Source of the DNA: a virus
Taxonomy: Duplodnaviria > Heunggongvirae > Uroviricota > Caudoviricetes
Length of the DNA stretch: 26,402 bases
Virus record (IMG/VR): IMGVR_UViG_2541047828_000003
Coordinates: 1 to 26,402 of that record
Strand: one strand, 5' to 3'
Made by a program: the position numbers. Shown piece by piece: positions 6,001-9,000 of this stretch (positions are counted from its first letter, which is position 1; each line of letters opens with the position of its first letter).

Positions 6001-9000
6001 ATGGATTTGCTATTGTTACCAGTGGGCTGGCATCTTCTGGCAATGACGTTTATGAAAATTATATGGCACTGGCTTTTGACAGTGTAGACGATGTGAACGT
6101 GAGACGTTCGGCAGATGTCACAAGCTACCCCGTAGAAAATGGTGCTACTGTATCGGATCACGTTCAAATTAAGAATAATCGGTTTTCTCTTAAAGGGCGC
6201 ATCTCTGAAACACCGATTAAAAGCGATCCTGGCTTGTTAAAGAGTGCAGGGGTGAACGGGAACAGAAGATCATTAGCTATTGATTATCTGAATCAGATTA
6301 TGGACAGTAGACAGCCTTTTCTTCTTGTTACAGAAAATAAAACTTTTGAGAACGTTGTTTTAACAGGCATCGAATACACAGAAGAGGCAAGCGAATCTCT
6401 GGTATTTGATCTTAGCTTTGAACAAATCAGATTAGTTTCTTATGGCACTGTAAACACTGTAGCTCTCAAAACACAGCCATCTAAGAACATTGGGGCTAAT
6501 ATGAAAAAACGTGTTAACACTGAAAAATCAAGTGAAGGTGAAGACACTATTACTCCTGCCTTTAAACAGGAATAGCCGTAAACGCCTCTAAAACGCTCTG
6601 TAATGATGTAATTATAAAAGAGGCCACCAATCTATGTTGAAGCCTCTTTATTGCGTCTATGGCGTTGTTTTACGCCTTAAATTTGATTTTTTATTGATTG
6701 ATAAGCCTTTCTCTATTTCAGGGTAGCGTAGAAGCTCAATATAGTTTTTAAGCTCTACTGGAGAAGCTGCATTCTTGCTATATGTGCGGAATGTTTCTGT
6801 ATTGCCGCGTGTATGGCCCAGGAGAAGGGCGATCCTGTCTTCTGGAATTTGATTTCGATCAAGAAGCTGTGCTACTCCGTGTCTCAGAGAATGAAACACC
6901 TTCCTTTCTGTTCCCTTTTCCCCTAAAGCCTTTCGTTTAGCTCTTGTAAATCTCTGCGTGTGCCACGTGGAACGTTTACCATCGGCCCGGTCTGTAATGC
7001 TGGCGTGATAGAACAAAAAGCCATTGTGAGGCTTTTCACGAAGAGATAACACCAACGGAGTGATAAGGCTATGCACAGGAACAAGACGTGCCGCAGCTTT
7101 CGTCTTTCCCTGTGTGATTTCAAAACACAGCACACCTTCGATCTCTTTCACATCGTCTATTGTGAGACTTGCTATCTCATTGATCCGCATACCTGTATAA
7201 GCACCGATAAGACACAAAGCCATCATTTCTTTGTTTTCTGCTGAATCACCGGAAAATACTTGCAACACTTGCAATAGCTCTTTGTTAGAAAATGCCTCAT
7301 AGCTCTCTCTACTTTGTGCCACATCAAGCCTATGCCCTCGCCAGGGGGAGAGCGCCCTTTCTGGCGCATCGTGGTAACGTGATGAAGCTAACTCCCATAG
7401 CTGGGCCATTGGGCTGATATAATTTGCAATTGATTGTTGTGAAAGGGTTTTTTGCATGTGTTCAATCCAGCCTGTAACAGTGGTGCGGCTTACATCTTGC
7501 AATGCAATATCAGGCTTTTTACGGTAGGAGAGAAACATCTCTACCGCTTTTCTTGCCTTAGCTAAAGTGGCTGGCTTCTTCTTCGTGCTGTTAATTGTCA
7601 GGTAGATTTCAAGAATTTTAAGCAATGACGGACACGAAGACGCTGTATCTTGCATTCTGGTAGCTGTTTTGGCGTATTTAGCCTTACTGCGTAACAGTTC
7701 CAGCGTGTTCTCTATTGTGCTGTTTACAGGGGCGACACTCTCCCGTAGACAATGGTATTCATCTGCAATCTGATCACGCTTTCTACGTGCAACACGAAGA
7801 TTACTTGTGTGCAGACTTCTAACAAACGTCCTTTTTCCTTCAAAAAAGGGCTGCATATACACAGGCAACGTGATCCTCAAATAGTAGTTACCGTAAGAAT
7901 CACAGATTATGTATTGATTGGGCTTGTATCTCATAAACTCCCCGGCTAAAGTGTCGGAGCGTTTGTAATGTGAAAATTGATTGTGACGCATAGAAAATGA
8001 TGATTTTTCTATAAGATTCAATCAATTAGCAATGGTCGTAGGTGATGGCATTAACACGAGATTAATCGAGTGTTTTACTCCTATTATCGGCACCATTCAA
8101 ACATCTCCCCAAGTCTACTAAAGTCTTTCAAAACCCCTTATAATCCGCGTATTAAAGCCCCGTTCGTCTTTTGACGTCTACTAAAGTCCCTCAAAATCTA
8201 CGGCCAGATGGGGGTACTTATGGGGGTATTTGCTGTTCGGTTTAGTGGAGGTACCCCCAAGTGAAACTCAATGCCCGTCAAATAGACACAGCCAAGCCAA
8301 AAGAGAAGGCTTACAAGCTGGCCGATGGTGGCGGTTTGTATCTCTTGGTAAAACCTAATGGAGGTAAATACTGGCGACTTAAATATCGTGTAGCTGGTAA
8401 AGAGAAGCTATTGGCACTAGGTGTGTATCCTGAGGTTACTCTAGCCGATGCTCGGGCAAAACGTGAAGATGCGAAAAGAGGTATCGCTGGTGGTATCGAT
8501 CCGATGGAAGCGAAACGAGAGGAAAAGATTGCCCGGGAAACGCAGTTAAACAACACCTTCAAAGATATTGCCCTTGAGTGGCACAGCAGTAAATTAAAAA
8601 AATGGTCTGCTGGTTATGCTTCAGACATCCTCGAAGCCTTCAACAAAGATGTGCTCCCTTACATTGGCAAAAAACCAATCGCCGAAATCAAACCACTTGA
8701 ACTTCTGAATGTGCTGCGGCGCATCGAGGGGCGAGGTGCTACAGAAAAAGCCAAAAAAGTGAGGCAGCGGTGCGGGGAAGTTTTCCGCTATGCAATAGTC
8801 ACTGGTCGCGCAGAGTATAACCCTGCACCAGACCTTACTAGCGCGATGCAAGGCCATGAATCTAATCATTACCCTTTCCTTACAGCCAAAGAATTACCTG
8901 ATTTTTTCAAGGCATTGTCCAGTTACTCAGGAAGCGCATTGGTTGTTATGGCGGCTCGTCTACTGATTATCACCGGCTTGCGAACTGGCGAACTACGTGG

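What the first reader, a model, noticed from the sequence alone, without database searches (positions are those of the whole stretch)
8079..8260. Left island junction: att core-like repeat, arm-type direct repeats and GGGGGTA motif upstream of the integrase
tcctattatcggcaccatt (8079-8097) recurs at 25850-25867; between it and the integrase start are two exact gtctactaaagtc repeats and the 21-bp tgggggtacttatgggggtat motif, which also recurs at the right end. The simplest model is attL = core 8079-8097 plus a P' arm with integrase arm-type sites. The alternative, that the 21-bp motif is the crossover core, cannot be excluded from sequence alone.
Basis: seen in the sequence. Interest (0 to 1): 0.5.

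Follow-up and report, generated by a model that had tools for sequence, protein, structure and literature searches.

The report
P4-type attL of thrW satellite island
This is the integrase-side attachment junction of an already described E. coli phage satellite (an EcCIMP1-type island) inserted into a copy of the 3' end of the threonine tRNA gene thrW, and its repeats are the standard integrase-binding sites of the phage P4 family, so it is real but ordinary.

Summary
All the repeats exist. The 19-bp repeat (8079-8097; 25850-25867, one G missing) is the 3' end of tRNA-Thr thrW. E. coli genomes lacking the island carry exactly the predicted empty site: left flank, one core, right flank, and no GGGGGTA.

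The window is a tandem array. A full thrW lies 5 kb left of the window, then island 1 (IntF-like integrase), a thrW fragment, island 2 (17.8 kb), a thrW fragment, and yagP. Island 2 is a variant of the published satellite EcCIMP1, whose int- and alpA-dependent excision was shown experimentally; its int-proximal arm is identical to the window's.

TGGGGGTA is the P4-type integrase arm site. The phage P4 record annotates TGGGGGCA 12-mers in the same layout: two tandem, core, 112 bp, two tandem, then one inverted copy at the int start. A sister family with a diverged Int N-terminus uses TGTGTATAG in that layout. The GTCTACTAAAGTC repeats lie on one arm only and are more likely sites for an excisionase or accessory protein (inferred).

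One new detail: 56/56 attL have GG and 14/14 attR have G, which places strand exchange in GCACCAT rather than in the published TCCTATTATC repeat.

The parts
8077..8097 (+). Displaced 3' fragment of tRNA-Thr thrW (ACTCCTATTATCGGCACCAtt). It serves both as attR of island 1 and as the attL core of island 2.
   Evidence: It is identical to the last 19 nt of the full thrW of the same genome (L002 7599-7617) plus one further base. The single core found in empty-site genomes is the same sequence.
8090..8096 (+). GCACCAT, the proposed 7-bp strand-exchange (overlap) region: acceptor end, discriminator, CCA and one further base. This is inferred.
   Evidence: All 56 attL cores have GG and all 14 attR cores have a single G, so the crossover lies to the right of the G run. 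Four attR flanks read CACCA|TC while the island arm reads CACCA|TTC, so attP/attB identity ends after CACCAT.
8113..8125 (+). GTCTACTAAAGTC, site 1. Candidate binding site for an excisionase (AlpA/Vis-like) or another accessory protein. This is inferred.
   Evidence: Exact 13-mer repeat. It is conserved as GTCTACTNAAG in most relatives but is absent in L338 and L328. It occurs on the int-proximal arm only.
8135..8146 (+). Conserved CCCTTATAATCC block. It could be the -10 element of the int promoter or a degenerate IHF site; this is unresolved.
   Evidence: Conserved across relatives and collinear with CCCTTTAAAATC in the P4 P' arm. The consensus scan found no sigma-70 promoter on the + strand.
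8176..8188 (+). GTCTACTAAAGTC, site 2.
   Evidence: Exact repeat. The TCTAC core of the site is invariant and the flanking G and T change only in L338, across representatives with 78-100% Int identity.
8194..8201 (+). AAATCTAC, a third TCTAC-type half-site 8 bp before the arm-site pair.
   Evidence: Conserved in 10 of 11 representatives aligned; L337 has one change, AAATCTAT.
8208..8231 (+). P'1 and P'2: two tandem 12-bp P4-type arm sites (aTGGGGGTActt, aTGGGGGTAttt).
   Evidence: Present in 39 of the 42 distinct arms; three carry a variant in one or both copies (GGGGGGA in L285, AGGGGGTA in L333, GGGGGCA in L342). The pair starts 112 bp after CCA, exactly as the annotated 'attP arm sequence repeat' pair does in P4.
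8233..8241 (+). Conserved CTGTTCGGT block of unknown role.
   Evidence: Conserved, with one or two base changes in three representatives, across the G5TA family alignment and also in the TGTGTATAG family.
8249..8260 (-). P'3: an inverted arm site (TACCCCCA at 8252-8259) lying between the Shine-Dalgarno and the GTG start of int. Its likely role is autorepression of int.
   Evidence: Conserved in relatives. It occupies the same position as the inverted P4 arm repeat at 3915-3926, which abuts the homologous int start. P4 Int represses its own promoter (PMC7286903 and PMC2951348).
8261..9475 (+). int: a P4-type heterobivalent tyrosine integrase of 404 aa.
   Evidence: Pfam hits: Arm-DNA-bind_3 at 1.4e-28, Phage_int_M, and Phage_integrase. 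It is 42% identical to P4 Int, with a nearly identical N-terminus. The motifs LRTGE, HGFRH and GTY are present.
9903..10106 (+). alpA: a Vis-like excisionase/regulator.
   Evidence: Pfam Phage_AlpA at 7.4e-20. It is 39% identical to P4 Vis. It has the same protein accession as EcCIMP1 AlpA, which is required for excision.
25767..25790 (+). P1 and P2: two tandem 12-bp arm sites on the distal arm (tTGGGGGTActt, tTGGGGGTAtct).
   Evidence: In 14 of 14 attR of the family the pair lies 58-63 bp left of the core. P4 has its pair 53 bp from its core.
25821..25833 (+). IHF-like site TATCAATGTATTT, matching 12 of 13 positions of WATCAANNNNTTR. Tentative.
   Evidence: 4 of 18 distinct P arms have a perfect match at the same position and orientation, against 0.26 expected after shuffling. 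The window's own copy has one mismatch.
25850..25867 (+). attR core TCCTATTATC-GCACCATT, carrying the attP-derived single G.
   Evidence: The single G is found in all 14 attR surveyed, which have at least 5 different right flanks.

Best explanation
Region 8079-8260 is the attL of a 17.8-kb phage satellite, a variant of the PICI EcCIMP1. The satellite integrated by site-specific recombination into a 21-bp displaced copy of the thrW 3' end at the right edge of a neighbouring thrW island.

The recombination module is of the phage P4 type.
- The catalytic domain of Int acts on the thrW-derived core.
- The Int N-terminal arm-binding domain binds five TGGGGGTA 12-mers. Two tandem copies lie on the distal arm (25767-25790). 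Two tandem copies (8208-8231) and one inverted copy (8249-8260) lie on the int-proximal arm.
- In the excised circle the two arms flank the core, so that arm-bound Int can be bridged to the core, probably with the help of IHF bending.

Inferred steps:
1. Strand exchange takes place in the 7 bp GCACCAT (8090-8096), not in the TCCTATTATC repeat, because attP carries a conserved 1-nt deletion just to the left of it.
2. The inverted arm site between the Shine-Dalgarno and the start codon, and the pair upstream of it, let Int repress its own gene, as in P4 and KplE1.
3. The GTCTACT/ATCTAC sites, found on this arm only, bind the Vis-like AlpA or another accessory factor that directs excision once a helper phage switches alpA on.
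For: Shown here:
- The core equals the thrW 3' end.
- The predicted empty site is contiguous in 278 E. coli genomes and exact over 100 nt in two, with no GGGGGTA or GTCTACT repeats.
- A 91.6%-identical int sits 166 bp after a full thrW in strain TUM9757, the same spacing as here.
- The P' arm is 100% identical to that of EcCIMP1 in strain MP1, and many proteins share accessions.
- TGGGGGTA occurs 5 times against 0.36 expected, only at the island ends.
- The P4 record annotates TGGGGGCA 12-mers as attP arm repeats with the same number, orientation and spacing: 112 bp from CCA to the pair in both, 15 versus 16 bp from the pair to the inverted copy, and 53 versus 56 bp on the other arm.
- Int carries Arm-DNA-bind_3. 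It is 42% identical to P4 Int with a near-identical N-terminus.
- Covariation: a sister family at the same core has a diverged Int N-terminus and uses TGTGTATAG twice plus an inverted copy at the ATG. L342 (78% Int identity) has TGGGGGCA in all three copies.
- 56 of 56 attL have GG and 14 of 14 attR have G, with several different right flanks.

From the literature:
- EcCIMP1 excises and circularises in an int- and alpA-dependent way, and its boundaries were confirmed by sequencing (PMC11773190).
- P4 Int and Vis repress Pint, and the region contains an IHF site (PMC7286903).
- An attL that overlaps the int promoter gives autoregulation (PMC2951348).
Against: - There are no binding or footprint data for this element.
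- The consensus scan finds no sigma-70 promoter on the + strand of 7900-8400, so the int promoter and its overlap with the arm sites are not located.
- GTCTACT site 1 is missing in L338 and deleted in L328, so it may be dispensable.
- The window's IHF-like site has a mismatch, and only 4 of 18 P arms have a perfect site.
- attL-type junctions with a single-G core exist in other genomes (L010/L016, L168, L171, L196, L222). The rule that the crossover is always right of the G run is therefore not universal at this hot spot.
- No true excised attP sequence was recovered; the attP-like junctions found are tandem-array junctions.
Confidence: 0.88

Rival explanations
1. The 21-bp TGGGGGTA-N4-TGGGGGTA motif is the crossover core and the thrW-like repeat is incidental.
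For: The motif recurs at both ends of the island in direct orientation.
Against: Empty sites contain one thrW core and no GGGGGTA. The island ends map exactly to the thrW repeat. The sequence between the motif and the core on each side is island DNA that is absent from empty sites. In P4 the same motif is annotated as an arm repeat, separate from the core.
Confidence: 0.01
2. Strand exchange occurs inside the 10-bp TCCTATTATC repeat, the core att proposed for EcCIMP1, and the G/GG difference is unrelated.
For: TCCTATTATC is the longest exact repeat flanking EcCIMP1 and was proposed as the core att (PMC11773190). Some attL-type junctions elsewhere have a single G.
Against: If the crossover lay to the left of the G run, attL would inherit the attP allele and attR the attB allele.
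Confidence: 0.15
3. The GTCTACTAAAGTC repeats are the integrase arm-type sites, and TGGGGGTA binds another island protein such as AlpA.
For: These are exact 13-bp direct repeats between the core and int, and they are conserved in relatives.
Against: They occur on one arm only, whereas arm-type sites of heterobivalent integrases occur on both arms. TGGGGG(C/T)A is annotated as the arm repeat of P4. It tracks the conserved Int N-terminus across 42% overall identity, while AlpA and Vis are only 39% identical. Site 1 is absent in some apparently intact relatives.
Confidence: 0.07
4. The junction is a decayed relic. The imperfect right core (1-nt deletion) means the island can no longer excise, and the repeats have no present function.
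For: The right core is imperfect. The neighbouring island in MP1 has a truncated int and a degenerate arm.
Against: The single G is universal in the attR of this family, including the experimentally mobile EcCIMP1. int is intact with its catalytic motifs. All five arm sites are perfect.
Confidence: 0.05

Closest known systems
Phage P4 attP / Int / Vis (leuX)
   Same: - The arm-site motif is TGGGGG(C/T)A in 12-bp units.
- The layout is the same: 2 tandem copies, the core, 112 bp, 2 tandem copies, 15-16 bp, then 1 inverted copy abutting the int start.
- The core ends in ...TCGGCACCA and is followed by TTC.
- Int is 42% identical with a near-identical N-terminal arm-binding segment, and the RDF is Vis-like (39% identical).
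- int sits next to attL and reads away from the tRNA.
- P4 Int autorepression is documented.
   Different: - The target is thrW, not leuX.
- attP carries a 1-nt deletion inside the tRNA-derived identity.
- The accessory-site motif is GTCTACT here and GTCC-type in P4.
- The rest of the element is a PICI (DUF927 primase, AntA, Ash, PerC), not P4 (no sid/delta/psu).
EcCIMP1, PICI of E. coli MP1 (PMC11773190)
   Same: - The int-proximal arm is identical, and AlpA and many other proteins share accessions.
- The target (tRNA-Thr between proA and the yag genes) and the gene order are the same, including P22-like ejection-protein genes, a second alpA and PerC.
- Excision dependent on int and alpA, and transfer by the P22-like helper Kapi1, were shown experimentally.
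   Different: - This copy is 17.8 kb against 19.96 kb.
- It sits in a displaced 21-bp thrW fragment behind an IntF-type island, not in the full thrW.
- The paper proposes TCCTATTATC as the core and does not describe arm sites; the word 'arm' has 0 occurrences in the main text.
KplE1 / HK620 IntS-TorI attL (argW) (PMC2951348)
   Same: The tRNA and int are in the same orientation. attL overlaps the int regulatory region, and both arm-type and RDF sites lie on the int-proximal arm. int is repressed by Int and by the RDF.
   Different: The integrase clade, the motif sequences (TAAA-containing P' sites) and the tRNA target all differ. Regulation has not been tested here.
CP4-6 ptwF-intF junction of E. 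coli K-12
   Same: It is the same chromosomal locus (intF, thrW fragment, yagP, paoD) with the same right flank TTACCCCATATTTAAATACACC. It corresponds to island 1 and its attR in the window.
   Different: K-12 keeps a 47-nt thrW fragment and lacks island 2. In the window's lineage the perfect identity to thrW is only about 20 nt.
Phage lambda attP
   Same: It shares the general logic of a heterobivalent Int: arm sites on both arms, IHF bending, Xis sites on one arm, and a 7-bp overlap region.
   Different: The family, motifs and geometry are different. Lambda Xis sites lie on the int-distal arm, and the lambda int promoter is not inside attL.

Membership tests
P4-type (Arm-DNA-bind_3 / DUF4102) tyrosine integrase recombination module | Integrase with an N-terminal arm-binding domain plus a tyrosine-recombinase catalytic domain carrying R..K..HxxR..H..Y. 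| tested here: met
   Pfam PF13356 at 1.4e-28, PF22022 at 8.3e-34 and PF00589 at 1.1e-26. The motifs LRTGE, MKMRR, HGFRH, LAH and GTY are visible in the translation. BLASTP gives 42% identity to P4 Int at E 3e-115.
P4-type (Arm-DNA-bind_3 / DUF4102) tyrosine integrase recombination module | Repeated arm-type sites on both sides of the core in attP. | tested here: met
   There are two TGGGGGTA copies on the distal arm and two plus one inverted on the proximal arm. The motif and geometry match the annotated P4 arm repeats. Actual binding was not tested.
P4-type (Arm-DNA-bind_3 / DUF4102) tyrosine integrase recombination module | Integration into the 3' part of a tRNA gene, leaving a displaced 3' fragment as a direct repeat. 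| tested here: met
   The core is the thrW 3' end. Relatives sit at the full thrW. The empty sites confirm this.
P4-type (Arm-DNA-bind_3 / DUF4102) tyrosine integrase recombination module | A Vis/AlpA-type wHTH recombination directionality factor encoded nearby. | tested here: met
   PF05930 at 7.4e-20. It is 39% identical to P4 Vis. The identical protein is required for EcCIMP1 excision.
EcCIMP1-type PICI (Gram-negative phage-inducible chromosomal island) | The order int, alpA, antirepressor/ash, pri-rep, with no full set of phage structural or lysis genes, and a size of about 12-20 kb. | tested here: met
   The island is 17.8 kb. Shared protein accessions with MP1 are shown.
EcCIMP1-type PICI (Gram-negative phage-inducible chromosomal island) | Helper-phage-induced excision, replication and packaging. 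| not testable with these tools
   This was shown for EcCIMP1 in MP1 with phage Kapi1 (PMC11773190), not for this copy.
Islands using the asymmetric 3'-end sublocation of tRNA genes | The crossover lies at the extreme 3' end (acceptor/CCA) rather than in the anticodon loop or T loop. | tested here: inconclusive
   Identity between attP and thrW starts only at the last base of the T loop. The GG/G polymorphism and the flank divergence bracket the exchange to GCACCAT. No cleavage mapping is available and exceptions exist elsewhere. The sublocation classes are taken from the text cited.
Autoregulated integrase genes whose promoter overlaps attL (STI shape, Panis 2010) | The tRNA and int are in the same orientation with int immediately downstream, and Int sites overlap the int promoter or translation start. 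| tested here: inconclusive
   The orientation and the 166-bp spacing are met. An inverted arm site lies between the Shine-Dalgarno and the start codon. However, no promoter was located and no expression data exist.

The most novel reading that the evidence does not exclude
The integrases of this thrW satellite family exchange strands in the 7 bp GCACCAT (end of the acceptor stem, discriminator, CCA and one further base). Their attP carries a fixed 1-nt deletion that puts the published 'core' TCCTATTATC out of register with the tRNA. Three things would follow:
- The published core is a core-type binding half-site or an ancestral relic, not the crossover.
- A natural minimal attB is about 20 bp (ACTCCTATTATCGGCACCAT).
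- attR is permanently marked as different from attB and attL, which might bias which copy in a thrW tandem array can be reused by incoming islands.

The shared ...TCGGCACCATTC end of the P4 (leuX) and thrW cores would then explain how P4-type integrases drift between tRNA targets.
Probability: 0.55. Interest if true: 0.3.

Novelty: already known. Interest (0 to 1): 0.17.

Why it matters
The practical value is mainly for annotation.
- It fixes the exact ends of a 17.8-kb satellite at 8098-25867.
- It shows that the window is a thrW tandem array, not a single island.
- It identifies TGGGGG(C/T)A 12-mers as a reliable signature of both ends of P4-type elements.

The one point that goes beyond the literature is the natural-junction evidence on the crossover. 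It suggests strand exchange lies in GCACCAT next to a conserved 1-nt deletion in attP, not in the 10-bp repeat proposed for EcCIMP1. That is a modest, directly testable refinement. It matters for designing att-based integration vectors or PICI 'drones' and for understanding how islands stack at tRNA hot spots.

Tried and rejected
- tRNA scan of the window found no gene. The core is only a 3' fragment, and the full thrW lies outside the window.
- I searched IMG/VR for a supposedly attP-specific junction, CCTATTATCGCACCATTC. It turned out not to be attP-specific. Most hits are attR in hosts whose flank begins TTC, and the attP-like hits (L020, and MP1) are junctions between tandem islands. No true excised attP was recovered.
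- I scanned genome contigs for the single-G core. Most hits were chance matches in unrelated phyla. The Enterobacterales hits gave more attR examples, but also attL-type exceptions.
- The sigma-70 promoter scan of 7900-8400 gave nothing on the + strand.
- An IHF consensus match in the distal arm gets only weak support: 4 of 18 arms, and the window's copy has a mismatch.
- I tested whether the RTYTACT half-site is enriched across the island. It is not: 16 observed against 17 expected. The 11/13 copy after the int stop codon is therefore not significant on its own.
- I considered whether the single G in attR is decay. I rejected this because it is universal in the family, including the mobile EcCIMP1.
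Full report
**Observation.** The repeats are all present.
- TCCTATTATCGGCACCATT lies at 8079-8097. Its right-hand copy at 25850-25867 lacks one G.
- GTCTACTAAAGTC is exact at 8113-8125 and 8176-8188.
- TGGGGGTA occurs five times in 26.4 kb against 0.36 expected, and only at the two ends of the island. Two direct copies are at 8209 and 8221, two direct copies are at 25768 and 25780, and one inverted copy is at 8252-8259.
It lies between the GGAGG Shine-Dalgarno and the GTG start of int at 8261.

**Where the window comes from.**
- The window is 100% identical to E. 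coli 20KM2222 and lies in the proA-thrW...yagP-paoD region, in K-12 orientation.
- No tRNA gene is in the window. The full tRNA-Thr thrW lies 5 kb to the left of it (L002 7542-7617).
- thrW ends ...GGTTCGACTCCTATTATCGGCACCA. Window 8077-8095 is therefore its last 19 nt, comparable to the ptwF fragment next to intF in K-12.

**Layout of the tandem array.**
1. thrW.
2. Island 1, 13 kb, with an IntF-like integrase at 6657-8021 on the minus strand and a few head- and tail-like genes.
3. A thrW fragment at 8077-8097.
4. Island 2.
5. A thrW fragment with a single G at 25850-25867.
6. The yagP (LysR) pseudogene and paoD.

The 'left island junction' is therefore a junction between two islands.

**Empty site.** I joined window sequence ending at 8097 to sequence starting at 25868 and searched complete E. 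coli genomes.
- 278 genomes hold this junction contiguously.
- In strains 14EC029 and cq9 the 100-nt junction-spanning sequence is identical to the prediction. They have one GG core and no GGGGGTA or GTCTACT repeat.
- Island 2 is therefore the 17.8-kb segment between the two cores, inserted by a crossover inside the thrW-derived repeat.

**Identity of island 2.**
- It encodes a 404-aa integrase with Arm-DNA-bind_3, Phage_int_M and the catalytic domain. It also encodes AlpA, AntA, Ash, Icd, a Toprim-DUF927 primase, P22-like ejection proteins, a second alpA and PerC.
- This is the published PICI EcCIMP1 of E. coli MP1, in a shorter variant. The MP1 locus has the same gene order and many identical protein accessions. 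Its int-proximal arm is base-for-base identical to window 8098-8260.
- For EcCIMP1, PCR and Sanger sequencing showed excision and circularisation that require the integrase and alpA, and the P22-like phage Kapi1 transfers the element. The authors propose the 10-bp repeat TCCTATTATC as the core att (PMC11773190).
- The paper's main text does not mention arm sites.
- The integrase family occurs in about 1,000 of 5,426 complete E. coli genomes. In strain TUM9757 a 91.6%-identical int sits 166 bp behind the full thrW, the same spacing as here.

**What TGGGGGTA is.**
- The GenBank record of phage P4 annotates 12-bp 'attP arm sequence repeats', and their sequence is (N)TGGGGGCA(NNN).
- The P4 layout is: two tandem repeats, 53 bp, the 20-bp leuX core ending TTCGGCACCA, 112 bp, two tandem repeats, 15 bp, and one inverted repeat abutting the int start.
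- The window has the same layout: two tandem repeats, 56 bp, the core, 112 bp, two tandem repeats, 16 bp, and one inverted repeat abutting the GTG. The two P' arms align collinearly.
- The window Int is 42% identical to P4 Int overall, but the N-terminus is nearly identical (MKLNARQ.(D/E)TAKPK.K.YK.ADGGGLYL).
- Two observations give covariation:
  - A sister family inserted at the same thrW core has a diverged N-terminus (MPLNDMQIRRAKPEAKAYTLGDGQGL). It carries TGTGTATAG twice plus an inverted CTATACACA at its ATG, and TGTGTATAG twice on its distal arm.
  - The most distant member of the present family (L342, 78% Int identity) has TGGGGGCA in all three proximal copies, and a matching distal arm exists in L231.
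- I therefore assign TGGGGGTA as the Int arm-type site. That assignment rests on homology and covariation, not on binding data.

**The GTCTACT repeats.**
- They occur only on the int-proximal arm.
- Alignment of representatives from among the 42 distinct arms shows GTCTACTNAAG (site 1), GTCTACT (site 2) and AAATCTAC as conserved blocks. Site 1 is absent in L338 and deleted in L328.
- The sister family has GTCCGTA repeats at the corresponding places, and P4 has GTCC-type repeats there.
- In KplE1 the RDF sites lie on the int-proximal arm and overlap the int promoter (PMC2951348). AlpA here is 39% identical to the P4 excisionase Vis. By analogy, I consider them candidate AlpA or accessory sites. 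This is an inference only.
- The conserved CCCTTATAATCC block could be a -10 element or a degenerate IHF site. The promoter scan found nothing.
- An IHF-like site on the distal arm is perfect in only 4 of 18 arms and has one mismatch here.

**Where strand exchange occurs.**
- An unbiased sample of attL, collected through the integrase gene, has GG in 56 of 56 cases. These include copies sitting on non-functional thrW fragments, among them the window itself.
- All 14 attR collected through the arm-site pair have a single G. They have at least five different right flanks and so represent independent insertions. The sister family behaves the same way.
- attB has GG. The single G must therefore come from attP, and the crossover must lie to its right.
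- In four attR the host flank reads CACCA|TC whereas the island arm reads CACCA|TTC. Identity between the partners is thus limited to GCACCAT.
- This places the exchange in those 7 bp, the asymmetric 3'-end sublocation (classes as summarised). It does not place it in TCCTATTATC.
- Caveats: attL-type junctions with a single G exist in other genomes and arm families (L010/L016, L168, L171, L196, L222). No genuine excised attP was recovered.

**Likely function of the arrangement.** In P4, Int and Vis both repress int, and the region contains an IHF site (PMC7286903). Integrase genes whose promoter overlaps attL are generally autoregulated (PMC2951348). Here an inverted arm site lies between the Shine-Dalgarno and the start codon, with a pair 16 bp upstream. 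The same regulation is therefore expected, but it is untested.

**Verdict.** It is ordinary and essentially already known: a P4-type attL of an EcCIMP1-type satellite in a thrW tandem array. The only addition to the literature is the assignment of the arm sites and the probable relocation of the crossover to GCACCAT.

Noticed in passing
window 17357-17480 and 24869-25003: There are two clusters of GTTGGTTCA iterons, each with 3 direct and 3 inverted copies. The clusters are inverted copies of each other (65 nt, 94% complementary). The first lies right after the primase gene, the expected PICI ori position. The second lies 7.5 kb away. Together they bracket the P22-like ejection-protein genes and the second alpA. 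The same arrangement is present in published EcCIMP1 (L142 11736-11848 and 20276-20388), and the paper does not mention inverted repeats.
   Followed up: partly
window 18101-22759: The satellite carries homologues of P22 gp14-like (DUF2824), gp7, gp20 and a 701-aa gp16-like DNA-transfer/transglycosylase protein. These are ejection proteins of the helper phage type. The EcCIMP1 paper notes them only as possible packaging candidates.
   Followed up: partly
window 1-8076 (island 1): This 13-kb thrW island has a replication-initiator-like ORF (1-558), a major-head-protein-like ORF (2656-3684), a tape-measure-like ORF (3990-5831), a tail-fibre/endolysin-like ORF (5865-6575) and an IntF-like integrase with DUF6538 (6657-8021, minus strand). 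It may be a capsid-encoding satellite or a prophage remnant. It is present without island 2 in 278 genomes.
   Followed up: partly
window 8062-8078 versus 25833-25849: The 17 bp to the left of the attL core belong to island 1 and are present in empty sites. They resemble the end of island 2's own distal arm (79% over 28 nt, repeat D11) and of the P4 arm (TGTTTGAG). This may be the relic of an older P4-type attR.
   Followed up: no
window 7975-8027: A 23-nt inverted repeat (AATTGATTGTGACGCATAGAAAA / TTTTCTATAAGATTCAATCAATT, 78% complementary) lies upstream of the IntF-like integrase gene. It is a possible operator or arm element of island 1 (I8).
   Followed up: no
window 9499-9524: GTTTACTAAAGTA matches 11 of 13 positions of the attL repeat. 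It is followed 6 bp later by an inverted ATCTACT, just after the int stop codon. It is not significant on its own.
   Followed up: partly
L171 (Citrobacter murliniae), L196, L168, L222, L010/L016: These are thrW copies or fragments that carry the single-G core directly followed by an int-proximal arm. In L171 a full-length thrW has lost one acceptor-stem G. This suggests that some integrase families at this hot spot cross over further to the left and damage the tRNA.
   Followed up: no
L142 9560-9760 (E. coli MP1): The junction between EcCIMP1 and the neighbouring Vat/MarR island looks like an attP: the EcCIMP1 distal arm, a single-G core, and then a degenerate proximal arm with the arm-site pair deleted and int truncated. 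The 'unclassified genomic island' of the paper is therefore a decayed P4-type island in the same tandem array.
   Followed up: partly
L002 10860-10910 (outside the window, in island 1): There are three CTAGGGGGTAG repeats at a 22-bp period. They are unrelated in position to the att arms.
   Followed up: no
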